Virus record (IMG/VR): IMGVR_UViG_3300045988_084596
Span: 1 to 57,929 of that record
Source of the DNA: a virus
Length of the DNA stretch: 57,929 nt
Direction: 5' to 3' (one strand)
The position numbers and the translations under genes are program-made. The notes under the pieces are model-generated. The model did no database searches. It worked only from the letters and a program-made list of their open reading frames with translations, and was not told the DNA's origin. Positions 21,601 to 56,032 of this stretch are shown piece by piece (position 1 is the stretch's first letter; each line of letters opens with the position of its first letter).

Positions 21601-24323
21601 AATGCCGTTGAAATAGCTGCCCCCACTCCTGTAATACCTATAGCTGCGGTTTTAGCTGAAGCTCCAACCGTTAAATAAGATATTGCAGTTAAACTATTCT
21701 ATAAAGCGTTCTCCTTAAATAAAGTTGAAATAGCAGGCAGCAACATTCCTAAATTAGTAAGAATAATATTAAAATCCTCAAGAGTAAATTCTCCATCTTT
21801 AATGGAATCACTAAAAGTAGAAAATATAGAATTAATACTTGTTATTCCCATTGTAATCTAAGATAAAGAAGTACCAACTTTAACAAGAGTCTCTGCCCAA
21901 TCTAAAGAAGCATATCTATTATTTTTTAACCCTTGAGTTATCTAATCCATTTCCTACTTTAATCTAGCGAGACCCTGTTCAAATGCCTAGCTACTAATTT
22001 CATTATTTTTAAACGCAGCAACTAATCCACTCAGATCATTCTTAAATCTAATTGAACCGTCTCCTAACGATCCAATAATTCTGGTTAAAGCAGTTACATC
22101 CTAAGCGGCCGTTCTAGTATCTGCGCTAAACTATCCCTATATAGAAAGATATTCTATTATCTCTTGATTCGTTGCATCCTGAGCGCCTTCAAAAAGATTT
22201 AAATTTCTAACTAAATCAATGGTACTCTAAGATATTTGATCTGTCCCAGATCCAACTAATCTCTATACTTCCTAAAATTTAGATAAATTTATACTTGCAT
22301 CTTTTAATTTAGAAATTAAAGCCTATAAAGCATCCTAATTTGACTTTAGCTAATCATTATAAAGAATTCCTTCTTCTACGTCTCCATATAAAGAAAAATT
22401 TTTCTCATCCTCTTTAACTAAGCCTTCTAATAATTTATTTCTCCAATTACTATTAGGGCCTAAATGGTCAGATAGACTATTAGTATAAGAAGCAATTAAA
22501 CTATCAGATTCGGTGACCTACTATCCAATTAAATTTACCTAAGTCTATAAAGTTTTTACTCTATCCAAATCTTGCTACAGAAGCCCAGCCTGACGCTCTG
22601 ATAACTATGTAGCAGCTGCCGCTGACTCACCCTAAAGACGCACAATCTCCGCCTAAGTGCCAACCATCTTCCCCTATATAGTATCTTCAAGAGTAGATTT
22701 TGCAATTATATCTGCCATCGCCGCAGCCTAATTTCTTAAATCTTGCGCACGATCTTTTTCTCTTTTTCCAATAATTCCCAAGTTAGCAGCTATATCTCTC
22801 ATGCCCTAAGCTATTTTATCTCCAAAAGCTTTATTCATCAATAAAGCCGTAGTCACTAAAACACCTGACATTCCACCTAATCCATCTATAATATCAGCCG
22901 TTACAGTTAAAATAGGAGTAAGAATATTATCAACGGTAATATAAAAGTCCGAATTTATTAAACTATCATAAATATCTTCCGCGGAAGCTCTTACTCTATC
23001 TCTTGCAGCTTCCCAAGATTCAGCGTAAATATCCGCCTACTCCTAAAGAGATCCTTCTGCCCCATAAGCACTAGCTAAATTCTCCTAAAAGAAATCCCAA
23101 TTATCCATAAGAGCAATAAGACGAGTATACTAACGAGCTCCAGCTACGGTCTAAGCTAAAGCAATTTGCTAGTCATTAGATAAAGTCTCCCACTTTGTTC
23201 CTAATTCTTCAAGTAGAGTATCCATTTCTTTAATCTATCCATTAGTATCAAAAATATCAATACCCACTTTTTCAAGAGCTTTAGAATATTTATTTAATGT
23301 AGTACCATCATCAAGTGTTTCACCTAAATTTAAACCCTAAATACGGGCAAAGATAGTTCTAAAAGCTGTACCTACTGTATTAGCAGATTCACGAGTAGTT
23401 GCAGTAACAGTAGCAAGAGCAGATGCAGCATATTCATAACTCAATCCAACTGTATCTGCAACAGCGGCAAACTATTGAATACCCTCTGAGATTTCATCAG
23501 AGCTAGATGCTGTATCGGCACCTAAACGCACCATTACGTCAGCATAATATTCAAGACTCTTACTTCCATCATAGAAGTTATTCCAAACTGCGGTTAACTG
23601 ATCCGAAGCTGTCTATGCACTAACTCCCGCGGCATTAGCCATTTTAATAGTTGTTTCAGTTCTATCTAGAACTTCCTACTCAGTAAGACCTTGCTGATAA
23701 TAGATTAAAGCAGCATCAGTATAATCAACCGTAGTTGTACTTAACGCTTTAGCTGCCTCATTTGCCTATTTAGCAAACTTAGCCATATCTTCTGAGGAAT
23801 TTTCAGTAACTATACGAATATTTGTTAATGATTCATTTAAATCTTGTGCGTATCCATAGGCTGTTTCTAAAGAGCCAATAAATCCCTATAACGCACTCGC
23901 TGTGATCTACCATCGAACAGTATTCTTCATTGTAATCCATAAATCAGACATTAGCTTATTTGTTCTAATTAATGGAGTTTCCGCAGCCATAATAGATTGA
24001 GAAAGATTTAAAAATGTTTCCTATCCTTTAATACCTAACTTACTAAGCTAATTATAATAATCTGTTAAAGTTTTTCCACTCTTTGCCAAACTATCATTAA
24101 ACATTATAAGATCTAGTTTACCAGAAGAACTATTTGTAGCCATCTAAAGATTTCGTCCCAATTCAAGAGCTGCTAAAGAAGCCTCTCTTAATTCTTTGGA
24201 AATAGATGACTAACTACCTAGTTTCTATAAACTATTTATAATTTCATTAATAGAAACTTTTAATTGACTTGTATCTGCGTCAAAACCAACAGAATACTTT
24301 ATCCTTCTATTGTTACTGGCCAC
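15618..24323 (-). CDS. tape measure protein, ~2901 aa, extremely TAG-rich
   Basis: GTG at 24323 after AAAGGAGGAAAAGGAT. N-terminus VASNNRRIKYSVGFDADTSQLKVSINEII. The same frame contains ORF 19806-20123 and C-terminal ORF 16038-16379, which bears the conserved TMP C-terminal motif GGYTGEFDNAKLAFLHEKELVLNQEDTKNIL. TAA at 15618-15620. Across 8.7 kb only two segments of 60 or more codons are free of stops, so in-frame TAGs are dense. Lies between the chaperone gene and the tail tip genes. Confidence 0.6.
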
Positions 24324-42494: not shown

Positions 42495-43262
42495 ATGAAA
42501 CGAGAAGAGCTCAAACAACACGCGCAATCGCATTACGCAGACATTAAAGTGAGACTCAAGGAAGATACAGATCGCGCAATTATAAACTCTGAAATTTTTG
42601 GCCCCAATCTTCCTTTTCCGCTAAAACCGCAAGAAACCTACCATAATACCTTTTATCTTAAAGACCAAGATAGCGTATCCTGTCTATTTGGTTTAACCGA
42701 TCGGAGCAAGACCGCAATCTTAAATTATGCAAGCTATAAACATCCAGGTGGTTACTTCCTTGGAGGCAGCTCTGCACAAGAAGAGGCATTGTGTCACGAA
42801 AGCAACCTTTATCCTATTCTTCTTGCTTTTGATGATACTTATTACGCATGGAATAGACAGAGACTAAATCGAGCCCTATATCTTGATAGAGCTATCTATA
42901 CTCCTGATGTAGTCTTTGAAAAAGACAATGGTAGAAAATTAGCTGATGTAATTACTTGTGCTTCTCCTAATTATAGAACAGCACATACTTATCAGCAAGT
43001 TCCTCTTTCTCTAAACAATAGGATAATGGAAGAGAGAATTAATTTTATGTATCGGATTGCCGAGGCTAAGGGAGTGGAAAATTTAATCGCGGGAGCCTGG
43101 GGCTGTGGTGTTTTTATGCAAGATCCATCAACGGTCGCCACCTTGCTCGTAAGCGCAGCCCGCAATTATAATATTCCAAATATTTATTTTGCAATTCCAG
43201 ACCGCAATTCCCGCAATTTTAGAATTTTCTTGGAGGTTTTGGAAAAATGTTCAAGCAATTAA
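42495..43262 (+). CDS. bacterial-type poly(ADP-ribose) glycohydrolase-like macrodomain protein (DUF2263/TIGR02452 family)
   Basis: RBS GGAAGAAAGGAAAC. Signature ILNYASYKHPGGYFLGGSSAQEEALCHESNLY matches the PARG catalytic GGG-X6-8-QEE motif (T. curvata PARG LNFASA..PGGGFL.G..AQEE.LCR.S.LY). TAG-free; TAA stop. Confidence 0.75.
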   Translation: MKREELKQHAQSHYADIKVRLKEDTDRAIINSEIFGPNLPFPLKPQETYHNTFYLKDQDSVSCLFGLTDRSKTAILNYASYKHPGGYFLGGSSAQEEALCHESNLYPILLAFDDTYYAWNRQRLNRALYLDRAIYTPDVVFEKDNGRKLADVITCASPNYRTAHTYQQVPLSLNNRIMEERINFMYRIAEAKGVENLIAGAWGCGVFMQDPSTVATLLVSAARNYNIPNIYFAIPDRNSRNFRIFLEVLEKCSSN

Positions 43263-43684
43263 TTATCGCAAGACGAGATTTAAATATGTCTCCAGGGAAA
43301 CTTGCCGCACAAGTTTCCCATGCTTCTATTGCTTTTCTTTTGGAAAAGTTATATTGGGGAAGTAAAGAAGTTGTTAAAGAAAGAGACGGTCTTATGTATC
43401 ATATAGGAATAAGCCTCGATAGAGACTTATTCCATAACTGGATAGCGGAAGCGGAGACCAAAGTAGTTTGTAGAGCGAAGAATAAGAATGATTTGCTAAA
43501 AGCTGTTGCAATGGCTAAAGAATTAGGATGGGAAGAGAATAAAGACTACTGGCTTATTTATGATGCTTGTAGGACGGAGTTAGAGCGTGAAGGCCCGGAA
43601 GGGACTTTGACGTGTATTGGATTTAGGCCAATGGAGGCGGAAGAAATTGATAAAATTGGGAAGAAGTATCAGCTTTATAATTAA
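43247..43684 (+). CDS. peptidyl-tRNA hydrolase, PTH2 family
   Basis: N-terminus MFKQLIIARRDLNMSPGKLAAQVSHASIAF matches the PTH2 signature (human PTRH2 [25 protein letters not shown]). Overlaps the PARG-like gene by 16 nt; TAG-free. Confidence 0.75.
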   Translation: MFKQLIIARRDLNMSPGKLAAQVSHASIAFLLEKLYWGSKEVVKERDGLMYHIGISLDRDLFHNWIAEAETKVVCRAKNKNDLLKAVAMAKELGWEENKDYWLIYDACRTELEREGPEGTLTCIGFRPMEAEEIDKIGKKYQLYN

Positions 43685-43889: not shown

Positions 43890-44310
43890 AGTATTAGTAT
43901 GGTTTGACGGTAAGCATTATTATAATATATGCGCAGTCTGTGGAGAATTATATCCAATTTACAAAGTAGAAGATCATATTATATATAATTTAAAGAAGAA
44001 GTGTAAATGCGGAGAGAAGAAGTGAGTTCTTCTCTCTTTTTCGTTATTGAGATTGAAAAGTTGATTTAGATTTTGAAATGGCGTGGCAGAACGATTTCAC
44101 CAAAAAATTTCCAGTTTTTCCCAAAATACACGCCCCTCTTTCACATGGTAAAGTATTGAAGTGTAGTTGGCCTCTTTCGCTCGCTAAAGTACGAAAGCAA
44201 GAAAGCACGCCCCTAAAGGAATACGCGCGCGTAAAGGGTTTGTGCAAACTGCACAACAAGATGTTATTTATTTTGTGCAAAAGAGAGAGAAAGAAATTTC
44301 AAAAAAACTA

Positions 44311-44339
44311 TTGACAAGTGAGCGTTTTGGTGGTAAACT
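44311..44339 (+). promoter_or_regulatory. sigma70-type promoter (first of two tandem)
   Basis: TTGACA-agtgagcgttttggtgg(17)-TAAACT with a preceding A-tract. Perfect inverted repeat ACTGGAC tt GTCCAGT sits at the expected +1. Confidence 0.45.
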
Positions 44340-44405
44340 GGACTTGTCCAGTAGGACAGAGACAAAAGCACGGCACTTTGAAAATTAAAAAATTTCAAAA
44401 AAGGT

Positions 44406-44434
44406 ATTGACAAACTGCTAAAGGTTTGATACAA
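44406..44434 (+). promoter_or_regulatory. sigma70-type promoter (second tandem)
   Basis: TTGACA-aactgctaaaggtttga(17)-TACAAT with extended TG; A-tract upstream. Confidence 0.5.
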
Positions 44435-44488
44435 TACAGACAGAACAAAAGAGAACCACACCACAAAAAGAAAGGGAGTCAAAAGAGT

Positions 44489-44863
44489 ATGAAAAAGATT
44501 GATTTTACCAATGAAGATCGAGCCATTATTATGGAGTATATGGCGGCTAAGATGGCTAAGTCTGCGGCGGAGGCGGCGGAGAAAGCAGCTAAGGCTAAGG
44601 CTAAAGAGCTATTCTCCAGATTAGGTAAGGCTTTTAAGGCTACGGACAAAACAAGTTATCTATATGGCACGGTACAAATGCAGGGTAAGGCGAAAGCGGT
44701 GGTATATAAAGAAACTACCGCAAAAGGAACGGTTGACTGGAAAGCCTATGCTATGGCATTAGGTGGAACGGAAGCCGAAGCAGAGCAATTCCGCAGACCT
44801 TCCGATATTCGTACCTCTTTTGATTGGGCGACAAAGACCCAAGAAGAAGAAATTAGAGGATAA
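44489..44863 (+). CDS. hypothetical Ala/Lys-rich protein (124 aa)
   Basis: RBS AAAGGGAGTCAAAAGAGT before ATG at 44489. The track ORF starts further upstream at 44426 in the same frame. Confidence 0.45.
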   Translation: MKKIDFTNEDRAIIMEYMAAKMAKSAAEAAEKAAKAKAKELFSRLGKAFKATDKTSYLYGTVQMQGKAKAVVYKETTAKGTVDWKAYAMALGGTEAEAEQFRRPSDIRTSFDWATKTQEEEIRG

Positions 44864-45130
44864 CAGTTTATAAACCCTGCCTTGCAAAACACAAGGCAAG
44901 GCAGGGTTATAATAATTAAAAGAAAGGGGCATACTATATGTATCAGTTACAAGTTTTAGCCAATGAGAAAATGCGCTATTATGAACCATCCACCCTTTCA
45001 ATGGCAAGATGGAAGGTCAGTCACGAGATAGTCAATCCTAATCATTGGATTGTGGATTTATCCAGTGGAGAAATCGTAGATTAAAAAGAAGCTGACCTAA
45101 CGGCTATACGGGGAGAAAGGATAAAAGACT

Positions 45131-45433
45131 ATGAACAATTATATTAAGTGGTTCGTTGGGCCTACTTTTAGAAAGCGTGAATTTATTAAACTTTTGCGGT
45201 ATAAGATGAATGTGCGTTCCGCAGAGGTAGAGGACGGCATCATCTTAGACCTGGATGCTTTTAATGCCATGCGAGTGGCCTATATGCCACACTGGGCTTA
45301 TATCAATAGAAAGTTTATCAATAGCAATCTGCATACCAGAATTGCAAGCGAAGACGAATATAAGGTTGCTATGATCGGAGATACAATCGGTACTGAATGG
45401 GTTAAAGAACAGGAGGCAAAGAAATGGAAATGA
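45131..45433 (+). CDS. hypothetical protein (100 aa)
   Basis: RBS GGGGAGAAAGG; TGA stop. Confidence 0.4.
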   Translation: MNNYIKWFVGPTFRKREFIKLLRYKMNVRSAEVEDGIILDLDAFNAMRVAYMPHWAYINRKFINSNLHTRIASEDEYKVAMIGDTIGTEWVKEQEAKKWK

Positions 45434-45592
45434 GAATTATTAAGCGGATAGGAGGCGGCATTTGTGCCGCTCTCCTACTCTGGACAGTTCTTAGTTGGGC
45501 TGATATAGTGGCGGATAACTGTGAGCCAAACCCACAGCACAGCGAATATAATATGTTCGTTCTCATGACTAAATAATAGGAGGAAAAAGAAA

Positions 45593-45826
45593 ATGTATAG
45601 AGGGACTTATATCGACGCCATGGGCCGCAAGCGCAGAGAGATGGGATATTTCAGTCTTAATAAGCCCACTCTGAATAAACTCCATATACCAGTAATTGTC
45701 CAAGCGAGAGATAAGACAAGTGCGGCGAATAAAATCAATAGGAAATATAAGTTGCGTATAAGTCCCAGTAATCTGCGGGAGGTGCCGATGGGCACAGGCT
45801 ATCTCATGGAAACCATGGAGCTGTAA
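45593..45826 (+). CDS. hypothetical basic protein (77 aa)
   Basis: RBS AGGAGGAAAAAGAAA before ATG; TAA stop followed by a double terminator. Confidence 0.4.
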   Translation: MYRGTYIDAMGRKRREMGYFSLNKPTLNKLHIPVIVQARDKTSAANKINRKYKLRISPSNLREVPMGTGYLMETMEL

Positions 45827-45840
45827 AGGAATAATACTTG

Positions 45841-45875
45841 ACTGGCAATCTACACAAAGATTGCCAGTCATTTTT
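45841..45875 (+). terminator. intrinsic terminator (first of a tandem pair)
   Basis: ACTGGCAATC tacacaaa GATTGCCAGT then CATTTTT. Confidence 0.55.
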
Positions 45876-45898
45876 ATGCACTTTTCCATATTGACTTT

Positions 45899-45937
45899 TC
45901 GCCGGGCCGCCAGCGTGCGCCGCGGCCCGAATTTTTA
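45899..45937 (+). terminator. conserved GC-rich hairpin terminator (family member 1 of 6)
   Basis: CGCCGGGCCGCcagcgtgcGCCGCGGCCCGAATTTTTAT. Confidence 0.55.
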
Positions 45938-46011
45938 TTTATTCGGCAATTTCAACAATTATATGACCGAAAGTCTGTGCAATTCGACGAAAGTTTTTCT
46001 CCCGAAATTAC

Positions 46012-46040
46012 TTGACATTCCTTTTGCCATGTGTTATTAT
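46012..46040 (+). promoter_or_regulatory. consensus sigma70-type promoter
   Basis: TTGACA-ttccttttgccatgtgt(17)-TATTAT, preceded by TCTCCCGAAA. Confidence 0.55.
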
Positions 46041-46092
46041 ATACTTGTCCAAAGGGACAGGCCACAAAAAGAATTTGAAAGGAAGTAAAAAA

Positions 46093-46332
46093 ATGACTTT
46101 AGATATGGTTGCTTGGTTACTTTCTCCGCTTGCAGAAGATACTATGTTCTTTGACGGGGAGGGATTCGAAATTATCAATAAGAATACCCAAGCTCATTAC
46201 CACGAATTACCTGATGGTAGAATAACTCTGGGAGGAGACGTAATCGAGGTATCTAAGGAATGGGTTCTGGGACTTCAGGTAACCGGCATTGAGGCAAGAG
46301 ATAACAATTTAATCATTTATGTAGATGGTTAA
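46093..46332 (+). CDS. hypothetical protein (79 aa)
   Basis: RBS GAAAGGAAGTAAAAAA before ATG at 46093. Confidence 0.4.
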   Translation: MTLDMVAWLLSPLAEDTMFFDGEGFEIINKNTQAHYHELPDGRITLGGDVIEVSKEWVLGLQVTGIEARDNNLIIYVDG

Positions 46333-46394
46333 GAAAACTTGCGGGAGTGGAGGCCATAAATCTCCACTCCCCATGATAAAAAGGAGGAATAAAT

Positions 46395-46610
46395 ATGATT
46401 GCTGTTATTAAATTTGAAAGTGTAGAAAAATCTGCGGAGTTTGGAGACACAATTTGTAATATGGCTGGTTGGTGTTTGAATCATCCTCTTAATTCCAATG
46501 TTACCGGCTGTGTTCGTACTCTTGATTTTAATACCGGCGACAAACAAGATAGAGCCTTATATAATTATCTGCTAAAAATTAGAGCTTTCGAGGAGGTGGA
46601 ACTAAAGTGA
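46395..46610 (+). CDS. hypothetical protein (71 aa)
   Basis: RBS AAAAGGAGGAATAAAT before ATG. Confidence 0.4.
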   Translation: MIAVIKFESVEKSAEFGDTICNMAGWCLNHPLNSNVTGCVRTLDFNTGDKQDRALYNYLLKIRAFEEVELK

Positions 46611-47016
46611 GTATTGAGCGTTTACCGCATACATATCCTATCGGTTCCACTGTTTGGACAAATAAGGGATATGGCACAGTTCTACTTCACATTGGTAAAT
46701 ACCATCTGGTTTGGTTACAGAGATTAGGGCTGGCGTAATGCCGGCCCTATTGATTTTTTCAAAAAAATATATTATAATAATTATAGAAAAATAAAGAAAG
46801 GAGTTTTTCTAATGACCTTAGAAGTGCTGAAAGCACTCGCGGTTATTTTGGAGTTCTGTTTGAACTAGGATTCTTGTAAAAATTGCCCTATGTCTCAGTT
46901 CTGCCAGAAAATGCCTTGCGAGCGGTAAATGTTCCTTCCGATTGTTCTAAATCGGCGATTCCCGTGATGGAGTCGTTTTTCGCACGAGCCTAGGTCACTA
47001 GAATTTATTTATCAAA

Positions 47017-47250
47017 ATGCAAGAAACTACTTTCTCTCGCAAATTAGATTCAAGTGGTAGAATTATGATTCCGATTCGCTTGCGTGAACAAATGGGACTT
47101 ACTTCCGGTTAGGAATACTATTTTACTACTATGGTAAAAGATGGTAGAAAATATATCTGTATTGACTGCGGATCGGTTGATTCCTCGCTTGAAGAAGCTA
47201 TGAAAATTATCCAAGCAAACGGATTAAAGATTGTTGAAAATGCCGATTGA
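47017..47250 (+). CDS. AbrB/SpoVT-like swapped-hairpin DNA-binding protein (77 aa) with one in-frame TAG at 47110
   Basis: KLDSSGRIMIPIRLREQMGLTSG(TAG)EYYFTTMVKDGRKYICI resembles the AbrB N-terminal domain (VDELGRVVIPIELRR.LGI...). TGA stop, then a double terminator. Confidence 0.55.
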
Positions 47251-47293
47251 CTTCTCAAAAGAAAGGGAGTTGTTGGTATGCAGAAATTAATGA

Positions 47294-47324
47294 CCTCCTG
47301 AAATTCAGGAGGTTCTTTTTTTAT
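47294..47324 (+). terminator. intrinsic terminator
   Basis: CCTCCTGAAATTCAGGAGG then TTCTTTTTTTAT. Confidence 0.6.
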
Positions 47325-47329
47325 TCGAT

Positions 47330-47368
47330 CGCCCGGCCGTGCACTATAGGCGCGGCCGGAATTTTTTA
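47330..47368 (+). terminator. conserved GC-rich hairpin terminator (family member 2)
   Basis: GCCCGGCCGtgcactataggCGCGGCCGGAATTTTTTAT. Confidence 0.55.
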
Positions 47369-47369
47369 T

Positions 47370-47423
47370 CAAGAGGCAATTTGCACAATTTTCCAGCCGA
47401 AATTTTGTGCAGTTTGCCTCTTG
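47370..47423 (+). promoter_or_regulatory. conserved dyad element (CAAGAGGCAA-TTGCACAATTTT...AATTTTGTGCA-TTGCCTCTTG)
   Basis: Near-perfect 22-bp inverted repeat around a 9-nt centre, located between the terminator pair and the promoter. Paralogous copies at 48263-48310, 49842-49919, 51636-51670 and 45946-45982. Confidence 0.5.
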
Positions 47424-47449
47424 TTTTCTATCCCGAAATCTGATATACT
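47421..47449 (+). promoter_or_regulatory. sigma70-type promoter
   Basis: TTGTTT-17-TATACT with extended TG, preceded by TATCCCGAAA. Confidence 0.45.
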
Positions 47450-47481
47450 TTAATCAACCTAAAGAAAGGAAGTAAATCAAA

Positions 47482-47946
47482 ATGAAAAAGATGCTCTGCT
47501 TTGATATGGATGGAACAATCGCTGACCTGTACGGCGTGGATGATTGGTTAAAAGATTTAATGAATGAAAATCCCTATCCATATACAGTCGCCAAACCTCT
47601 TTGCGATATAGAAGAATTGAATACCGTTCTTAATAAGCTCATTGAGCAGGGCTGGGAAATTCGGGTTATCAGTTGGCTTGCAAAAGACAGTTCTAACTCA
47701 TATAAAACTGCTGTTCGTGACGCAAAGCGCACTTGGCTTGCAAAATACAACTTCCCCGCACATAAAGTCCACCTTGTGGAATATGGCACAACAAAAGCAA
47801 ATTGTGTGCGGAAACACTTTGAGCCGGGAATTAGCAATTTCATTTTGATTGATGATAATAAAAGTGTGCGGGATGGCTGGCATTTAGGGGAAACAATCGA
47901 GCCACATGAAGATTTACCTACGGCCTTATGGCGACTGGTAGAGTAA
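47482..47946 (+). CDS. HAD-superfamily 5'(3')-deoxyribonucleotidase-like protein (154 aa)
   Basis: Motif I MLCFDMDGTIADLYG (DxDGT) is typical of NT5C-type dNMP nucleotidases. RBS GAAAGGAAGTAAATCAAA. Confidence 0.65.
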   Translation: MKKMLCFDMDGTIADLYGVDDWLKDLMNENPYPYTVAKPLCDIEELNTVLNKLIEQGWEIRVISWLAKDSSNSYKTAVRDAKRTWLAKYNFPAHKVHLVEYGTTKANCVRKHFEPGISNFILIDDNKSVRDGWHLGETIEPHEDLPTALWRLVE

Positions 47947-47986
47947 TCCACCAGTCAATCTTAAAATAAGAAAGGAAGTTTTGTAA

Positions 47987-48175
47987 ATGAAGATTAGAAA
48001 GGTTAATAGGCTTATCCTCAGCGAGGAAGAGCGACAAGTATTGAAAAATGCGTCCATTCTCATTGGTCAAATTGATCAGGTTATGGCCGACAATGAAATT
48101 GATGACGATATTTCGCTTGAAGATTTAAGCTATTGGCTTGACGAGATTATCAATAAAGAATATCTTGGATATTAA
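47987..48175 (+). CDS. hypothetical acidic protein (62 aa)
   Basis: RBS AAGAAAGGAAGTTTTGTAA before ATG. Confidence 0.4.
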   Translation: MKIRKVNRLILSEEERQVLKNASILIGQIDQVMADNEIDDDISLEDLSYWLDEIINKEYLGY

Positions 48176-48199
48176 GAGGGCTTCGGCCCTCTTATTTTT
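48175..48199 (+). terminator. intrinsic terminator (UUCG-type tetraloop hairpin)
   Basis: AGAGGGCTTCGGCCCTCT then TATTTTT. Confidence 0.55.
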
Positions 48200-48216
48200 A
48201 CTCTTTAATATCGTTT

Positions 48217-48262
48217 GGGCGGCTCGCTGGCGCACGCGGCGAGCCGAGTTTTTGTTTTTGTC
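48217..48262 (+). terminator. conserved GC-rich hairpin terminator (family member 3)
   Basis: GGGCGGCTCGCtggcgcacgcGGCGAGCCGAGTTTTTGTTTTTG. Confidence 0.55.
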
Positions 48263-48307
48263 GATGTTGCACAATTTTGGCTTGCAAATTTTGTGCAATT
48301 TGCCATC

Positions 48308-48336
48308 TTGTAATTATCCCGAAAGTATGGTATTAT
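48308..48336 (+). promoter_or_regulatory. sigma70-type promoter
   Basis: TTGTAA-17-TATTAT with extended TG, preceded by TATCCCGAAAG. Confidence 0.45.
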
Positions 48337-48501
48337 ATATTTGTCAAGAGGGGAAGGCCAAGAAATCAAGAGGTCGCGAACTCTTAGAAAGTAAAGGAAG
48401 TAAATTTATATTGTGTCGTAAGTCGAGTGAACGCCGTTAGAATAGGCCGTTCTAATGCCCAGTAGCTTGCAGTAAATCGCAATAAAAATTTCCTTTTCCT
48501 C

Positions 48502-48530
48502 TTGACATCAAGCATGATATGTGCTATAAT
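48502..48530 (+). promoter_or_regulatory. consensus sigma70-type promoter
   Basis: TTGACA-tcaagcatgatatgtgc(17)-TATAAT. Confidence 0.55.
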
Positions 48531-48562
48531 AAACTCAACAAGAGGAAAGGAAGTCAAAGATT

Positions 48563-49354
48563 ATGATTGATAAGCGTAGACACTATGTTTTGGTGGTTGA
48601 TACTGAAACTGCTAACACACTGACTGAAACTGACGAAAACGGCAAAGCCCGCATGGATATGAGTTGCGTTCTTGTCTATGATTGCGGATGGGCGGTAGTG
48701 GATACCAAGGGCAATATTTATGAAACTGCCAGTTTTGTAAATAGGGACATTTTCAACGATGAGCGGGATCTCATGCGGACTGCTTATTATAATTGGAAAA
48801 TTCCCCGCTATATTGAGGAACTGCGGGCCGGCACTCGTAAAATGGCTACCACTTATGAAATCCGCCAAGCTATGCTCAATACCATTGAGCGATACGGCAT
48901 TAAGGAAGTTGCGGCTTATAATGCCAGATTTGACGATAATGCCTTGAGAGTTACACAACGATGGGTCACTTGCTCCAAGTTCCGCTACTGGTTCCCGTTT
49001 GATAGTGTGGAAATCTGGGACATTATGAAGATGACACAGGATGTTATCTGCAATATGCCCACTTATAAGAAATTCTGTCAGGAAAACGGATATGTCCAGG
49101 CCAATGGCGTTCCTCGTAAGACTGCGGAAATCGTGTGGCGGTTTATTTCTGGCAATACCGATTTTGAAGAAAGTCATACGGGGCTTGAGGATGTTCTCAT
49201 TGAGGCGGAAATCATGTGGTATTGTATGCGTCAGCATAAGCCCATGAGAAAGGCCCTGTATGAGAATAAGAGAGAGTTTCCACCTATGACAGATTTTCAG
49301 CGTCAACTTTCCGCAAGTATGCGTTCAATTCCAACTATCCGGGTAGGGGCTTAA
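48563..49354 (+). CDS. DEDDh-family 3'-5' exonuclease (DnaQ-like), 263 aa
   Basis: Exo I motif VVDTETAN, Exo II motif AYNARFD, Exo III motif HTGLEDVLIEAE (H...D). RBS AGAGGAAAGGAAGTCAAAG. Confidence 0.6.
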   Translation: MIDKRRHYVLVVDTETANTLTETDENGKARMDMSCVLVYDCGWAVVDTKGNIYETASFVNRDIFNDERDLMRTAYYNWKIPRYIEELRAGTRKMATTYEIRQAMLNTIERYGIKEVAAYNARFDDNALRVTQRWVTCSKFRYWFPFDSVEIWDIMKMTQDVICNMPTYKKFCQENGYVQANGVPRKTAEIVWRFISGNTDFEESHTGLEDVLIEAEIMWYCMRQHKPMRKALYENKREFPPMTDFQRQLSASMRSIPTIRVGA

Positions 49355-49381
49355 AGCCCCGCCCGACAGAAAGGAAATAAT

Positions 49382-49573
49382 ATGTCTCAAGTTCATTGTA
49401 TGCGGTGGAGTTGCCCGCATTATGCCGAGGAAGGCATGGACCCAGAACAAATCTATGATACTATCTGCCCAGATTTTGACACGGAATCACTTTGTTGCTC
49501 TTTGGGTGAGCCATGGTTCGACTGTGACGAATATCAGAGACAATATGGAGTTGATGATTTCGAGGAGGAATAA
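49382..49573 (+). CDS. small acidic Cys-rich protein (63 aa)
   Basis: RBS AGAAAGGAAATAAT before ATG. Confidence 0.35.
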   Translation: MSQVHCMRWSCPHYAEEGMDPEQIYDTICPDFDTESLCCSLGEPWFDCDEYQRQYGVDDFEEE

Positions 49574-49574
49574 A

Positions 49575-49757
49575 ATGGTAACAAAAACTGTATATACCTC
49601 TTCTCTGTGCGCAGATGCCGTTTATATGGCAATTCAAATTATTGAGCGTATGGGATGGTGTCATGATGATATTGACGAAGATGGAAATATGCTGGTAAAT
49701 GTTCCCATTGAGGATGAACACCTGTTTGATTTTCTGGATAACTGTATTTTCTGTTAA
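49575..49757 (+). CDS. small hypothetical protein (60 aa)
   Basis: RBS GAGGAGGAATAAA before ATG at 49575. The track's longer 49422 ORF shares the 3' part. Confidence 0.3.
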   Translation: MVTKTVYTSSLCADAVYMAIQIIERMGWCHDDIDEDGNMLVNVPIEDEHLFDFLDNCIFC

Positions 49758-49786
49758 GAAGGGCTTCGGCCCTTCTTTTTTTATAC
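49758..49786 (+). terminator. intrinsic terminator (UUCG tetraloop hairpin)
   Basis: GAAGGGCTTCGGCCCTTC then TTTTTTTAT. Confidence 0.55.
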
Positions 49787-49792
49787 AAAATT

Positions 49793-49832
49793 TGAGCGGG
49801 TCGCGCAGGAACGGCGCGACCCGAGTTTTTCT
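49793..49832 (+). terminator. conserved GC-rich hairpin terminator (family member 4)
   Basis: GAGCGGGTCGCGCaggaacgGCGCGACCCGAGTTTTTC. Confidence 0.55.
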
Positions 49833-50027
49833 TTGTAAATGTTGCACAAAAATTTCAGCTCCGTTTTGTGTAAAATTCTGCACAAAAACTTTCTCCCAAA
49901 ATTCAGATTTTTTGTGCAATTTGACGCTTGCAATCTGCTTTTGCTTGTGGTAAAATACATTCAGAAAGTGAGAGAGACGAACGGCAGACAGCGACAGCGA
50001 ATTTCTCAAAAATCTTTCAAGAATCTC

Positions 50028-50056
50028 TTGACAAGCCTTTGAAGATGTGCTATAAT
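50028..50056 (+). promoter_or_regulatory. consensus sigma70-type promoter P1 of a triple tandem array
   Basis: TTGACA-agcctttgaagatgtgc(17)-TATAAT. Confidence 0.55.
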
Positions 50057-50105
50057 AAGTACAGAAAACAAGGCAAGGAACCTTGAAAAGTGAATAAAAA
50101 AGGGC

Positions 50106-50134
50106 TTGACAAACTCTCCAAAGTGTGTTACACT
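50106..50134 (+). promoter_or_regulatory. sigma70-type promoter P2
   Basis: TTGACA-aactctccaaagtgtgt(17)-TACACT. Confidence 0.45.
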
Positions 50135-50200
50135 ATAAGGGAGGTTGAGAGGGCAAACAAGTAAAGAGCAAAAGTTCTTGAAAAAAGTTTGAAAAACCTC

Positions 50201-50229
50201 TTGACAAACTCCCGATAGTGTGGTACAAT
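50201..50229 (+). promoter_or_regulatory. sigma70-type promoter P3
   Basis: TTGACA-aactcccgatagtgtgg(17)-TACAAT with extended TG. Confidence 0.5.
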
Positions 50230-50278
50230 ATAATCAAAGGACAAGGACAGTCCTAAAAACCAGAAAGGATGTATTACC

Positions 50279-50680
50279 ATGAGCGAGAAGAAAATCCGTA
50301 TCACTAAGGCCCAGCGTTTCGAGGACATTAAGGCCCTCTTGGCTGGTGATGAGGTGAAGCATGGCACAACCATGGAGATTGCCATGACCGTCATTGACCA
50401 TGAGCTGGAGCTGTTGCGGAAGAAGAATAGCTCCGGCGGTGACAAGAAGCTGACCTCGACCCAGCAGGAGAACGAAAACTTTAAGGAGCAGATTATGGAG
50501 TATCTGGCTGGTCTGGACGCCGATACCGATGGCGTGACCTGCACGGAAATTTTTAAGGCTATTCCTGATCTGACGGCCTATTCTAACCAGAAGGTCGCCG
50601 CTCTTGTGCGGCAGTTGAAACTCGATGGTCGAGTAGTCTGCACGGAGAAGAAGGGCAAGTCCCTCTTTAAGATGGCGTAA
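50279..50680 (+). CDS. hypothetical protein (133 aa), compositionally atypical (GC-rich codons), possible winged-helix C-terminus
   Basis: RBS AGAAAGGATGTATTACC. Codon usage (CTG, GAG, AAG, GCC) differs visibly from the rest of the window. Followed by hairpin GGGCGGGGtgaaaatCCCCGCCC. Confidence 0.45.
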   Translation: MSEKKIRITKAQRFEDIKALLAGDEVKHGTTMEIAMTVIDHELELLRKKNSSGGDKKLTSTQQENENFKEQIMEYLAGLDADTDGVTCTEIFKAIPDLTAYSNQKVAALVRQLKLDGRVVCTEKKGKSLFKMA

Positions 50681-50818
50681 CCCCGTATAGGGCGGGGTGA
50701 AAATCCCCGCCCTAACTTATAATATGGGGGTGATATTATATCCAGTCGCATTAGTGACGCTGAACGGATTGCAAGGTATAAAGCCCTGCAATTAACGCCG
50801 GAAGAGGAGGCAGATTTA

Positions 50819-51136
50819 TTGGCCTATGATAAGGCGGTAGAGGCTGATAAAAAGACTGAATACGATTTATCGCCAGAAAAGGCGAAAATCGCTCAAAAGT
50901 TTGCCCATGCTGGAACGCGCAAACAGCCAACCGCATATAAGTTCACTACACGGCAACGCAAGCCAAACGCCACGAAAGGCGGTATAATTGCGGAATTGGC
51001 AGAGTTTTTGGAAAAAAACAGTCAATTCTCTATCGCTGACTTGTCTATTACTAACAAGGAAAGACAGATTGCGTTTTCTATTGGTGGGGATAGTTTCGAG
51101 TTGACGCTTGTGCAAAAGCGTAAGCCGAAGAAATAA
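50819..51136 (+). CDS. hypothetical basic protein (about 105 aa); start uncertain
   Basis: TTG at 50819 from the track. The frame is open back to 50723 with no ATG. Followed by hairpin CGGGGTAGGgtcggCCTACCCCG. Confidence 0.3.
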   Translation: MAYDKAVEADKKTEYDLSPEKAKIAQKFAHAGTRKQPTAYKFTTRQRKPNATKGGIIAELAEFLEKNSQFSIADLSITNKERQIAFSIGGDSFELTLVQKRKPKK

Positions 51137-51192
51137 CGGGGTAGGGTCGGCCTACCCCGGCCCTACCAGAAAAGAGGCAAGTTATAGTTAGT

Positions 51193-51543
51193 TTGCAGAC
51201 AAGGGGAAAAGAGTTCCTATATGTCGGACATTATATCGACAAAAAGGGGCGCTATATTCTCAAGATTGGTACGACAAATGACCTTGAACGCAGAGCCGCA
51301 GAGCATACGAGAAATTATAAGCGGGCGCCAGATTACACCATGCCGGAAGATGGTTCCTTTATCTATGATTGGCATATCAAACTTTCCAAGTATAATACCC
51401 TACGATACGAGGATGTAAACCGGACTTTGTGGCAGAATATGGGAATTGGTCGTTTTATCAGAAATGACCGTTTCTTGTGCGACACTCCCCCGGCCATGGT
51501 TACGGTGGTTATTCGCAAGGCATATCCAATAATTCTCAACTAA
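51193..51543 (+). CDS. GIY-YIG-like nuclease domain protein (116 aa)
   Basis: FLYVGHYIDKKGRYILKIGTTNDLERRAAEHTRNY resembles the GIY...YIG...R...E catalytic core. Confidence 0.45.
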   Translation: MQTRGKEFLYVGHYIDKKGRYILKIGTTNDLERRAAEHTRNYKRAPDYTMPEDGSFIYDWHIKLSKYNTLRYEDVNRTLWQNMGIGRFIRNDRFLCDTPPAMVTVVIRKAYPIILN

Positions 51544-51548
51544 AGAAA

Positions 51549-51577
51549 AATCTCCCCTTATGGGGAGATTTTTTTTA
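51549..51577 (+). terminator. intrinsic terminator
   Basis: ATCTCCCCttatGGGGAGAT then TTTTTTTT. Confidence 0.6.
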
Positions 51578-51587
51578 CGCAAAATTT

Positions 51588-51628
51588 TGGGCGGACCGCT
51601 TGCGTGCGCCGCGGTCCGATTTTTTCTT
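51588..51628 (+). terminator. conserved GC-rich hairpin terminator (family member 5)
   Basis: GGGCGGACCGCttgcgtgcGCCGCGGTCCGATTTTTTC. Confidence 0.55.
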
Positions 51629-51679
51629 CTATTGTCATTTTCAACAATTTTGAATTGAAAATCTGTGCAACTTGACAGC

Positions 51680-51708
51680 TTGACTTTCTCCCAAAAATGT
51701 GGTATCAT
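51680..51708 (+). promoter_or_regulatory. sigma70-type promoter
   Basis: TTGACT-17-TATCAT with extended TG, preceded by TTTCTCCCAAAAA. Confidence 0.45.
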
Positions 51709-52541: not shown

Positions 52542-53269
52542 GATCGGACCATAGCGCAAAATTTTCATAGCAACTTGGCCATAACGCAACTTCATAGCGA
52601 TTTTCCCAAAATTCATAACGCCCTCTTCCAAACACCGATCGGCCCTACTTTACTTCTTCCTTTATCTAGTTCCGATCGGTTCAGCAATATTGGCTCTCTC
52701 GTCCAATTTTTTATAATAAAAATCTTAAAATTGTCAAGTATTCACAGTACCAAAACTTTCTAAAATACAACTAGCAATAGCAAAGATATAGCTATGAAAA
52801 ACAAATACGACCAGAGATTTCTTTCGCGGAGCCGATCGGTTTAACACGATTTTATGATAAAAATAGCTTAAAAATAGAGATTTTAGCTAGATAAACCGAT
52901 CGGCCCGCAATCTTTTACCTTTTGTTATCGCAAAATATAACAAAAAACCTCTAAAATCTTGCAAAAATGCGCGTTTTTCTAACAAATTTACTTAAAAATA
53001 AGTAAAAAATGCCTCGTTTTTCTCAAAATTTCTTGATATTCACAGAATTAAAACCATTAAAGATACAGCAAACAATAGCAAAGATGTTGCTAACTATTTG
53101 AAAAGGAAAAATCTTTTCCGCGGGATTCCATTAAAGCGATCTTTTTATCTAGACCCGATCGGTTCGACAATATATAAAAAATATAATATAATATATACAT
53201 AAGATAAAGAAAAGGAGGATTTTAGTTTAAGAAGCATCATAACGCTTTTTCTAACTAAAAGAACTTATT

Positions 53270-55980: not shown

Positions 55981-56032
55981 ATAAAATTATTATATAATAT
56001 ATATAGAAAGTTAAGGAAAGGGAGTAAAAGTT

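What the first reader, a model, noticed from the sequence alone, without database searches (positions are those of the whole stretch)
44239..51670. Recurrent dyad-symmetric element TTGCACAA(TTTT)...(AAAA)TTGTGCAA between terminators and early promoters
Copies sit at 47370-47423 (a 22-bp near-perfect inverted repeat CAAGAGGCAATTTGCACAATTTT / AATTTTGTGCAGTTTGCCTCTTG), 48263-48310 and 49842-49919. Degenerate copies are at 51636-51670 and 45946-45982. A compact version, TTGTGCAaacTGCACAA, is at 44239-44255.

All lie immediately upstream of the -35 of an early promoter and are followed by a conserved T(A/C)TCCCGAAA box.

This looks like a common operator for a dimeric regulator controlling the early units. 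An RNA leader hairpin is less likely, since the elements are upstream of the -35.
Basis: seen in the sequence. Interest (0 to 1): 0.6.

Follow-up and report, generated by a model that had tools for sequence, protein, structure and literature searches.

The report
Shared Clostridial promoter-upstream dyad, phage early promoters
The repeated dyad is real, but it is not private to this phage: it is a protein-binding-type element placed just upstream of the -35 box in many gut Clostridia phages, other mobile elements and some host genes, so this phage's early promoters probably use a host factor that is still unidentified.

Summary
Six dyads (TTGCACAA-N15/16-TTGTGCAA) lie at 44240-51670, all intergenic, against 0 in 300 shuffles. 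Five follow a double terminator.

In four copies the promoter-facing arm sits 8-9 nt upstream of a sigma-70-type -35. In two it sits 29-30 nt upstream, about two helical turns further.

Strand hairpin potential is not conserved, so this is a DNA site, not an RNA structure.

The same dyad-plus-promoter occurs in more than 119 viral contigs and 75 genome stretches, almost all Clostridia. These include unrelated mobile elements and host promoters (GH53 galactanase operon, NrdD, MatE). In six Lachnospiraceae the arms, -35 and -10 are invariant while the spacer drifts. A related Enterococcus phage lacks the 8-mer.

Each arm appears to be the well-kept half of a 17-bp palindrome (TTGTGCAA-N-TTGCACAA). 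The proximal site abuts the -35 (centre about -43). A second site lies 33 or 43 bp upstream.

My best reading is a host-supplied dimeric factor in an activator-like position.

The TCCCGAAA box tracks the phage lineage and is the better candidate for a phage-encoded regulator.

The factor and the sign of regulation are unknown.

The parts
44240..44256 (.).
   Evidence: The same N1 head-to-head arrangement recurs in 18 independent contexts in the fetched loci and in more than 120 viral contigs.
44273..44280 (+). Copy F, promoter-facing arm TTGTGCAA. It lies 16 nt after CTGCACAA (44249-44256) and 30 nt upstream of the -35 at 44311.
44311..44339 (+). Promoter-like site TTGACA-17-TAAACT (TG-extended), first of a tandem pair with 44407-44435
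45903..45936 (+). Copy A: conserved G+C-rich hairpin (CGGGCCGC/GCGGCCCG) plus T-run, a second terminator after the gene-specific one at 45839-45870
   Evidence: (families D1/D2).
45951..45982 (.). Copy A dyad, degenerate: TTCAACAA-N16-CTGTGCAA
45998..46040 (+). Copy A: TCTCCCGAAA box (45998-46007), then promoter TTGACA-17-TATTAT (46012-46040). The arm is 29 nt upstream of this -35.
47333..47367 (+). Copy B: conserved G+C-rich hairpin (10 pairs) plus AATTTTTT
47381..47412 (.). Copy B dyad TTGCACAA-N16-TTGTGCAG. The inverted repeat extends to 47370-47423 in this copy only.
   Evidence: (z = -7.6).
47421..47449 (+). Copy B promoter TTGTTT-17-TATACT, 8 nt after the arm. TATCCCGAAA box (47429-47438) lies inside the spacer.
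   Evidence: Read. The 8-nt spacing class is supported.
48220..48253 (+). Copy C: conserved G+C-rich hairpin plus AGTTTTT
48267..48298 (.). Copy C dyad TTGCACAA-N16-TTGTGCAA (both arms perfect)
48308..48336 (+). Copy C promoter TTGTAA-17-TGgTATTAT, 9 nt after the arm. TATCCCGAAA box (48315-48324) lies in the spacer.
49797..49830 (+). Copy D: conserved G+C-rich hairpin plus AGTTTTT
49842..49919 (.). Copy D: four arms, TTGCACAA (49842), TTGTGTAA (49866), CTGCACAA (49878) and TTGTGCAA (49912), with spacings of 16, 4 and 26 nt. TCTCCCAAAA box (49892-49901) lies between the last two.
49928..49956 (+). Copy D promoter TTGCAA-17-TGgTAAAAT, 8 nt after the arm. Three consensus promoters (50028, 50106, 50201) and gene 50279 follow.
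51592..51625 (+). Copy E: conserved G+C-rich hairpin (CGGACCGC/GCGGTCCG) plus ATTTTTT
51640..51670 (.). Copy E dyad, degenerate: TTCAACAA-N15-CTGTGCAA
51680..51708 (+). Copy E promoter TTGACT-17-TGgTATCAT, 9 nt after the arm. TCTCCCAAAA box (51687-51696) lies in the spacer.

Best explanation
Each 8-mer 'arm' is the well-conserved half of a roughly 17-bp palindromic binding site (TTGTGCAA-N-TTGCACAA) for a dimeric DNA-binding protein. That protein is supplied by the Clostridial host, not by this phage.

In the window the promoter-facing site abuts the -35 hexamer. Its centre is about -43 if transcription starts 7 nt after the -10. A second site lies 33 bp further upstream, or 43 bp in part of copy D; these are three or four helical turns.

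Bound on one face of the helix next to sigma-A RNA polymerase, the factor most likely helps recruit or stabilise polymerase at the phage's early promoters. These promoters often have imperfect -35 boxes and sit behind double terminators. The phage has in effect copied a host promoter-upstream element.

The T(A/C)TCCCGAAA box is a separate element specific to the phage lineage. It lies in the promoter spacer or between the arms, and it is the more likely target of a phage-encoded regulator.

What is shown: the motif, its grammar, its phasing and its distribution. What is inferred: that a protein binds, that the protein is host-encoded, and that it activates.
For: Reality and placement:
- 6 dyads against 0.000 in shuffles.
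- In 25 related loci, the distance from arm to the next -35 falls at 8 nt (11 sequence clusters), 9 (14), 18 (1), 29-30 (4) and 41 (2), and at 33 nt (2 clusters), which does not fit a helical series. Orientation is fixed.

Grammar:
- Arm-to-arm spacing is quantised: N15/16 in 48 of 78 and N26 in 10 of 78, against 5% in a random control.
- Head-to-head arms strongly prefer N1, which gives a perfect 17-bp palindrome; 18 contexts. That palindrome is found in more than 120 viral contigs.
- In five distinct contexts the palindrome directly abuts TTGACA.
- The outer half after the proximal arm keeps TTGC: 3.53 of 7 matches against 1.88 expected (consensus).

Not phage-specific:
- More than 119 viral contigs and 75 genome stretches, against roughly 1.6 expected (my own uniform-composition estimate, not a tool output), nearly all Clostridia.
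- 120 of 194 of these loci share no protein with the window.
- Other elements interleave their own operators between unchanged arms.
- Host promoters of the GH53 operon, NrdD and MatE carry it. In six Lachnospiraceae the arms, -35, -10 and a LacI-like operator are invariant while the 16-nt spacer is free.
- Related Enterococcus phage EF1 has no 8-mer in 40.6 kb that includes its early region.

Two promoter classes in the window:
- Dyad promoters have -35 boxes TTGTTT, TTGTAA, TTGCAA and TTGACT.
- Dyad-free promoters are perfect TTGACA with A-tract upstream regions.

Box is lineage-bound: 77% of dyad promoters in related loci, 39% in loci sharing a protein, 11% in unrelated loci.
Against: - No binding protein is identified, and no matching published motif was found.
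- Perfect dyads are rare in host genomes: 75 stretches in about 185,000 species, many on phage-like contigs. A host regulon is therefore thinly documented, and part of it could be promoters acquired from mobile elements.
- Many dyad promoters elsewhere have consensus -35 and -10 boxes and should not need an activator. A site abutting the -35 can also repress.
- The outer half-sites are only partly palindromic, so the 17-bp model could be an over-reading of 8-mers plus a TTG(A/C)C feature.
- Enterocloster phage PMBT24, which infects a Lachnospiraceae host, lacks the dyad, so the element is not universal in the host lineage.
- Transcription start sites are predicted, not measured.
Confidence: 0.45

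Rival explanations
1. State-sensing repressor site. A host regulator binds the dyads and shuts the phage early promoters under particular host conditions such as stationary phase or sporulation. The phage keeps the sites because the delay benefits it. This is the logic of Spo0A boxes in Bacillus phage phi29 (from my own knowledge).
For: - The sites abut the -35 of promoters that are often already consensus.
- Paired sites three or four turns apart suit cooperative repression or looping.
- The host genes carrying the dyad include secreted proteins and carbohydrate-utilisation operons, which are typical targets of transition-state repressors.
Against: - The sites do not overlap the core promoter beyond about 1 bp.
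- In the window the dyad promoters have the weaker -35 boxes, while the dyad-free promoters are perfect. That is the pattern expected for activation.
- The box does not match the Spo0A consensus TGNCGAA (read).
Confidence: 0.18
2. An UP-like element read by RNA polymerase itself. The arm and its A/T flanks (GAAATTTGTGCAAwwT) would be a Clostridia-type upstream promoter element contacted by the alpha C-terminal domains, with no separate factor.
For: - Position is -57 to -38, orientation is fixed, and displacement by about 10, 21 and 33 bp is tolerated. UP subsites behave this way (from my own knowledge).
- The element is generic across unrelated mobile elements, which add their own operators around it.
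- In the window it takes the place of the A-tract upstream regions seen at dyad-free promoters.
Against: - G, T, G, C and A are invariant inside the arm, and there is a second inverted arm 16 or 26 nt upstream even where no divergent promoter exists. Neither is expected of alpha-CTD minor-groove contacts.
- Transcription start site mapping in the Lachnospiraceae C. phytofermentans reports only an A-rich region upstream of -35 (PMC5171806).
- The Enterocloster phage lacks the element.
Confidence: 0.15
3. One reading: a common operator for a phage-encoded dimeric regulator, either gp50279 or the AbrB-like protein at 47017, controlling the early transcription units.
For: - The dyads mark all six early units.
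- gene 50279, which follows the largest array (four arms in copy D plus four promoters), has a confident model (pLDDT 87) with a C-terminal winged helix. Its Phass-1 counterpart is arranged the same way.
- The AbrB/MazE-like gene carries an in-frame TAG and lies behind a different promoter type, which fits a late-made shut-off factor.
Against: - The dyad occurs in elements and host promoters that lack these genes.
- gp50279 homologues number only 195, all unnamed proteins from metagenome-type sources.
- In the locus-level tests, the presence of any window protein, including these two, tracks the box; this is confounded by phylogeny. Dyads were not tested.
Confidence: 0.12
4. Mainly historical. 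The dyad is the footprint of back-to-back divergent promoters, each arm belonging to one promoter. The whole terminator-dyad-promoter cassette was then spread by duplication or recombination, as with T4 promoter-stem-loop (PeSL) cassettes. On this view the distal arm has no present function in this phage.
For: - In relatives the distal arm has its own complete minus-strand promoter at the mirror distance: L001 (three cases), L009 7649, L007 7369 and L024 191.
- In the window only copy B keeps a minus-strand -35 (TTGATA-18-TATAGT).
- The five modules are alignable paralogues.
Against: - Distal arms stay perfect in B, C and D although the minus-strand promoters are gone.
- Host promoters with no divergent partner keep both arms invariant across six species.
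Confidence: 0.07
5. A nucleic-acid structure: an RNA leader or anti-terminator hairpin, or a DNA cruciform.
For: Copies B and D fold far better than shuffles (z = -7.6 and -3.3).
Against: - Copies A, E, C and F do not fold well (z = +1.4, -1.0, -1.8 and -1.6).
- The dyads lie after two terminators and before the -35, so they fall outside the predicted transcripts.
- Across loci the spacer length and the arm sequence are conserved, not the pairing.
- Rfam finds nothing.
Confidence: 0.03

Closest known systems
Class II activator sites (CRP/FNR at -41.5; phage Mu Mor and C dyads at about -43.5; lambda CI at OR2 for PRM). Comparison from my own knowledge.
   Same: - A palindromic site for a dimer that abuts or overlaps the -35.
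- One well-kept and one degenerate half-site, as in lambda operators.
- A partner site an integral number of helical turns upstream.
- The outer pentamers TTGTG/CACAA resemble CRP/FNR-type sites. HcpR sites TTGTGA-N6-TCACAA are listed in PMC545781.
   Different: - The site is 17 bp (TGTGC-N5-GCACA), one base pair shorter than CRP/FNR sites.
- A normal -35 hexamer follows it rather than being replaced.
- The binding protein is unknown, and activation has not been shown.
Rex operator (TTGTGAA-N4-TTCACAA) of Firmicutes. Comparison from my own knowledge.
   Same: Outer bases TTGTG...CACAA, and a widely conserved host regulator in Clostridia.
   Different: - 18 bp against 17 bp, and inner bases GCAA/TTGC against GAA/TTC.
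- Rex is a repressor whose sites overlap promoters.
- The gene set here (phage early genes, GH53 operon, NrdD, MatE) is not a redox regulon.
ComK boxes of Bacillus subtilis. Comparison from my own knowledge.
   Same: Two dimer sites upstream of the -35, with discrete spacing classes that differ by whole helical turns.
   Different: The sequence is different (AAAA-N5-TTTT), and ComK is absent from most Clostridia.
phi29 p4 sites and plasmid RK2 KorB class I operators. Comparison from my own knowledge.
   Same: One regulator site repeated at many promoters of a mobile genome, placed just upstream of the -35, often between divergent promoters.
   Different: Those regulators are encoded by the element itself and their sites are confined to it. 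Here the site is shared with unrelated elements and with host genes.
T4-type PeSL cassettes (promoter-early stem-loop). Comparison from my own knowledge.
   Same: A repeated intergenic cassette combining a stem-loop or terminator with an early promoter, flanking small early genes.
   Different: Here the order is terminator, then dyad, then promoter. The conserved core is a protein-site-like dyad shared well beyond the phage lineage.

Membership tests
Phage-specific operator (CI/Cro- or p4-type) | Dyad symmetry next to the regulated promoters | tested here: met
Phage-specific operator (CI/Cro- or p4-type) | Sites confined to the element that encodes the cognate regulator | tested here: not met
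   The dyad occurs in unrelated mobile elements and at host promoters. It is absent from the related Enterococcus phage EF1.
Phage-specific operator (CI/Cro- or p4-type) | Binding by a phage-encoded protein | not testable with these tools
   gp50279 has a predicted winged helix. No binding data exist.
UP element (alpha-CTD site) | Located at about -38 to -59, and functional when displaced by whole helical turns | tested here: met
   The arm lies at -51 to -44. Displacements of about +10, +21/22 and +33 bp are seen.
UP element (alpha-CTD site) | A/T-rich tracts without invariant G/C positions | tested here: not met
   G, T, G, C and A are invariant in 327 non-redundant contexts, and there is an inverted partner arm.
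Class II activator site | Palindromic dimer site centred near -41.5 to -43.5, abutting or overlapping the -35 | tested here: met
   The 17-bp palindrome model is supported. The centre is about -43, using predicted start sites.
Class II activator site | Transcription depends on the bound activator | not testable with these tools
   The only indication is indirect: the dyad promoters in the window have the weaker -35 boxes.
CRP/FNR or Rex operator | 16-18-bp palindrome, TGTGA-N6-TCACA or TTGTGAA-N4-TTCACAA | tested here: not met
   The preferred arrangement is TTGTGCAA-N1-TTGCACAA (17 bp): 18 contexts at N1, one at N0 and none at N2.
Spo0A box (tested for the TCCCGAAA box) | Core TGNCGAA | tested here: not met
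   The box reads T(C/A)TCCCGAAA or TCTCCCAAAA, which lacks the G at position 2.
RNA leader hairpin, attenuator or known RNA family | Transcribed, with pairing conserved through covariation | tested here: not met
   The dyads lie between the terminators and the -35. Folding z-scores are inconsistent. Rfam gives no hit.
Intrinsic terminator (tested for the G+C-rich hairpin of the module) | G+C-rich stem, short loop and a 3' T-run, with the stem maintained by compensatory changes | tested here: met
   Stems of 8-10 pairs followed by A(A/G)TTTTT. The stems differ between copies but stay complementary.

The most novel reading that the evidence does not exclude
The 17-bp palindrome TTGTGCAA-N-TTGCACAA may be the site of an undescribed, widely conserved transcription factor or polymerase-associated factor of gut Clostridia (Lachnospiraceae, Oscillospiraceae, Acutalibacteraceae). 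It would work from a CRP-like class II position. A very large group of uncultivated phages and other mobile elements would have copied it as the hallmark of their early promoters, and would layer their own lineage-specific operators on top: here the TCCCGAAA box, elsewhere the operators next to small ribbon-helix-helix genes.
Probability: 0.3. Interest if true: 0.75.

Novelty: new member of a known kind. Interest (0 to 1): 0.5.

Why it matters
If correct, the motif is a ready marker for several uses:
- It annotates early promoters in a large group of uncultivated gut phages that use TAG as a sense codon.
- It points to Clostridia as their hosts.
- It provides a portable strong-promoter architecture for genetically difficult gut Clostridia.
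- It makes an open question directly testable: which host factor do these phages depend on at the start of infection? A 17-bp probe can be used for pull-down or DAP-seq.
- It separates a generic host-type element (the arms) from a lineage-specific one (the box), which suggests how mobile elements build private regulation on a shared promoter scaffold.

Tried and rejected
- **Known RNA families.** Rfam at gathering thresholds found nothing relevant in the window or in 18 host loci. ARAGORN found no tRNA in the window.
- **Literature.** Searches on the 8-mers returned primers and unrelated sequences. The phAss-1 paper does not mention promoters or repeats. A transcription start site study of a Lachnospiraceae reports only A-rich upstream regions.
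- **Known motifs compared by eye.** I rejected Spo0A, CodY, CcpA cre, TnrA/GlnR, NtrC, sigma-54 -24/-12, NrdR, PurBox, the Noc site, DnaA and LacI-type operators for wrong spacing or wrong core bases. These are comparisons from memory, not database tests.
- **A phage binder by co-occurrence.** Every window protein tested tracks the box equally, which is phylogenetic confounding.
- **Ribbon-helix-helix proteins as the generic binder.** They lie downstream of the dyad in 20 loci, but the window has no homologue (best tblastn E = 0.74), and those elements carry their own additional repeats.
- **Pfam and PHROGs on about 20 early proteins.** No clear regulator emerged beyond the AbrB/MazE-like protein.
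- **Enterocloster phage PMBT24 as a cultured example.** It has no dyads.

Full report
**What the window is.** It is 57.9 kb at 34.6% G+C and comes from a tailed phage that reads TAG as a sense codon. The minus-strand structural genes (2385-40709) are full of in-frame TAG; a 2901-codon tape-measure-like ORF has 111. The plus-strand block from about 41.8 to 52.2 kb is almost free of TAG. The only relative among deposited phages is phAss-1, a human-gut phage of the 'code 15 clade' with a presumed Clostridia host. The finding lies in the standard-code, presumably early, block.

**Checking the observation.**
- TTGTGCAA occurs 8 times against 1.87 expected, all between 44240 and 51115, and 7 of the 8 are intergenic.
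- The full dyad occurs at six places against 0.000 in 300 dinucleotide shuffles, and nowhere else in the window.
- The box occurs 6 times against 1.0 expected.

**The unit is larger than described.** Five copies are paralogous modules of about 130 nt. Each has four parts in order:
- the upstream gene's own terminator;
- a second, conserved G+C-rich hairpin whose stems differ between copies but stay complementary, followed by A(A/G)TTTTT;
- the dyad;
- a sigma-70-type promoter with a TG-extended -10.

**Details that needed correcting.**
- The promoter-facing arm is 8-9 nt from the -35 in B, C, D and E, but 29 nt in A and 30 nt in F.
- The box lies inside the promoter spacer in B, C and E, between arms in D, and upstream of the -35 now used in A. 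F has none after it.
- D holds four arms. F holds three, including a near-perfect 17-bp palindrome.

**DNA site or strand structure.** Folded as single strands, only B (z = -7.6) and D (z = -3.3) beat shuffles. A, E, C and F do not (z = +1.4, -1.0, -1.8 and -1.6). The dyads lie after two terminators and before the -35. Rfam finds nothing. What is conserved is the 8-mer sequence, its orientation and its spacing.

**Relatives.** Twenty-three IMG/VR loci fetched through the 263-aa protein (48563-49354), plus phAss-1, all show the 8-mer at 6-15 copies per roughly 9.5-14 kb locus.
- Across 91 sequence clusters, the distance from the arm to the next -35 is 8 nt (11 clusters), 9 (14), 18 (1), 29-30 (4), 33 (2) or 41 (2). 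Apart from the two clusters at 33 nt, these steps are about one helical turn. TTGTGCAA always points at the promoter.
- Arm-to-arm spacing is quantised at N15/16 (48 of 78) or N26 (10 of 78). A random control gives 5%.
- In several relatives the distal arm has its own complete minus-strand promoter at the mirror distance. The element is therefore symmetric: -35, N8, arm, N16, arm, N8, -35.

**The turning point: distribution.** With TTGAC added it matched 75 stretches among 185,579 species genomes. My own uniform-composition estimate of the chance expectation is about 1.6. Nearly all hits are Clostridia: Lachnospiraceae, Oscillospiraceae, Acutalibacteraceae, Ruminococcus, Coprococcus and Christensenella. 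A few contigs look mis-binned.
- Only 74 of the 194 loci share any protein with the window.
- Twenty loci carry a small ribbon-helix-helix gene behind the dyad. They interleave their own repeats between unchanged arms, for example CTGTTGCGTG three times, ACTCACGCGAGTAT three times, or TTGCGCAA.
- Other hits are ordinary host promoters: a GH53 galactanase operon with a LacI-like operator at the start site, NrdD, a MatE pump, and secreted or lipoproteins. All have TTGAC-17-TGnTAxxxT.
- In six Lachnospiraceae MAGs the GH53-operon promoter keeps both arms, the -35, the -10 and the LacI-like operator invariant, while the 16-nt spacer drifts.
- Enterococcus phage EF1 shares the exonuclease-like gene and the genome layout, yet has no 8-mer in 40.6 kb that includes its early region.
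- The element is not universal in the host lineage. Enterocloster phage PMBT24, whose record annotates a sigma factor, has no dyads.

**What the arms are.** Head-to-head arms strongly prefer a 1-nt gap, which gives the perfect palindrome TTGTGCAA-N-TTGCACAA. There are 18 such contexts, and more than 120 viral contigs carry it. In five distinct contexts it directly abuts TTGACA.
- In ordinary dyads the 8 nt after the proximal arm keep the inner part of the missing half: T 0.57, T 0.90, G 0.66, C 0.44. That is 3.53 of 7 matches against 1.88 expected, and the signal is specific to this register (consensus).
- The host promoters show fuller outer halves, TTGTGnAn and nTnnACAT.
- I therefore read each arm as the good half of a 17-bp dimer site. 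The proximal site spans about -51 to -35, with its centre near -43. The partner lies 33 bp upstream in the N16 class or 43 bp in the N26 class, that is three or four helical turns.

**Mechanism.** The geometry is that of a class II-type activator site with an in-phase upstream partner.
- In the window the dyad promoters have imperfect -35 boxes: TTGTTT, TTGTAA, TTGCAA and TTGACT.
- The dyad-free promoters (44407, 48502, 50028, 50106, 50201) are perfect TTGACA with A-tract upstream regions.
- Phages keep near-consensus sites at almost every early promoter, so the sites presumably benefit them.
- I therefore favour recruitment of host sigma-A polymerase by a host factor (confidence 0.45).
- Alternatives are a conditional host repressor (0.18), a polymerase-intrinsic UP-like element (0.15), a phage-encoded regulator (0.12), and a relic of divergent promoters (0.07).
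- Binding, the identity of the protein and the sign of regulation are all inferred. Start sites are predicted.

**The box.** T(A/C)TCCCGAAA is present in 77% of dyad promoters in the phAss-like loci, 39% in motif-seeded loci that share a protein with the window, and 11% in unrelated loci. The background for this pattern is about 1% per 17-mer.
- In N16-class promoters it sits in the promoter spacer or between the arms.
- In N26-class promoters it sits only between the arms, in either orientation.
- This mirrors where other elements place their private operators. The box is therefore the better candidate for a phage-encoded regulator.
- gp50279 is modelled with confidence (pLDDT 87) and has a C-terminal winged helix weakly resembling PerR, ArsR, MarR and Z-alpha domains. 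It has 195 homologues, none named, almost all from metagenome-derived collections.
- The AbrB/MazE-like gene (47017) carries an in-frame TAG and follows a different, AT-rich promoter-like repeat.
- Co-occurrence cannot choose between these two.

**Comparison with known systems, and novelty.**
- By position and symmetry the closest are class II sites (CRP/FNR; Mu Mor and C; lambda CI at OR2).
- By sequence the closest are Rex and HcpR-type sites (TTGTGA-N6-TCACAA), but the site here is one base pair shorter.
- By spacing classes the closest are ComK boxes.
- By use at many promoters of a mobile genome the closest are phi29 p4 and KorB.
- By cassette structure the closest is T4 PeSL.
- These comparisons are from my own knowledge. 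The defining spacing of the CRP/FNR and Rex families was tested and not met.
- I found no published description of this motif.
- I class it as a new member of a known kind, a promoter-upstream factor site. Interest is moderate (0.5) because the site is shared between gut Clostridia and a very large set of their uncultivated phages, and because the factor can now be looked for directly.

Noticed in passing
window 2385-40709 (- strand); 46813-46928 and 47017-47250 (+ strand): TAG is read as a sense codon in the late genes; for example, ORF 15618-24323 has 111 in-frame TAG. No tRNA gene lies in the window. Two small TAG-containing genes, one of them AbrB/MazE-like, sit inside the otherwise TAG-free early block.
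   Followed up: partly
window 46762-46808, 53176-53222, 55982-56028: A separate AT-rich repeat family (AAAAAATATAwTATAATAwwTAtAGAAA...AAGGAG) lies directly upstream of genes, including the TAG-containing ones at 46813 and 47017. It is a candidate middle or late promoter class distinct from the dyad promoters (family D5).
   Followed up: no
window 44311-44435 and 50028-50229; L001 3119-3329: Tandem arrays of near-perfect sigma-70 consensus promoters lie 78-96 nt apart. Most are preceded by A-tracts (AAAAATTTCAAAAAA). They sit in front of gene 44489 and gene 50279. The same arrangement precedes the gene at L001 3355-3777, the apparent counterpart of gp50279 (similar N-terminus, read by eye), in phAss-1.
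   Followed up: partly
window 45903-45936, 47333-47367, 48220-48253, 49797-49830, 51592-51625: A conserved second terminator follows each gene-specific terminator. The flanks GGCGG...CCGA(G)TTTTT are kept while the stems covary between copies and between relatives. In many relatives the T-run runs straight into GTCAA. On the opposite strand that gives arm-N8-TTGACA, with the hairpin occupying the position where a -10 would be. This is unexplained.
   Followed up: partly
L001 2969-3060; L009 7560-7650; L007 7369; L024 191: In relatives the distal arm drives a full minus-strand promoter that fires into the G+C hairpin and the 3' end of the upstream gene. In phAss-1 the hairpin is bracketed by face-to-face promoters whose -10 boxes are 33 nt apart. 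The purpose could be antisense RNA or transcriptional interference, but it is unknown.
   Followed up: partly
window 47343-47372 (- strand): Only copy B keeps a minus-strand promoter-like site (TTGATA-18-TATAGT). Its -10 falls in the loop of the G+C hairpin. It is not conserved in the closest relative, L004.
   Followed up: partly
window 45975-46040: Copy A looks like a decayed dyad promoter. AAGTTT stands where B has TTGTTT, and the box is still in place. A new consensus TTGACA-17-TATTAT lies about 20 nt further downstream, which gives the 29-nt arm-to-(-35) distance (read).
   Followed up: no
window 42495-43262 and 43247-43684: There is a microbial-type poly(ADP-ribose) glycohydrolase domain protein (Pfam E = 6.7e-26) and a PTH2 peptidyl-tRNA hydrolase (E = 1.2e-22) just upstream of the early block. 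The hydrolase is notable in a phage that recodes a stop codon.
   Followed up: no
window 51108-51115: The only exact 8-mer inside a coding region lies in gene 50819-51136. It is conserved in relatives as part of the coding sequence and has no dyad partner or promoter, so it is probably incidental.
   Followed up: partly
L028, L032, L161, L168, L170, L175, L207, L218 and others: Unrelated Clostridial mobile elements place their own repeats (TTGCGCAA, CTGTTGCGTG, ACTCACGCGAGTAT) in the promoter spacer, between the arms and on the mirror side. A small ribbon-helix-helix gene lies downstream. One such operator, TTGCGCAA, differs from the arm by a single base.
   Followed up: partly
L324 12824-12852 and 13488-13516 (Enterococcus phage EF1): Two EF1 early promoters carry a CCCGAAA or CCCAAAA box in the spacer (TTGACAccaCCCCGAAActatggTATACT), although the phage lacks the dyad. 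This is a weak hint that the box follows the phage lineage across host orders; only 2 clear cases among 37 promoters.
   Followed up: partly
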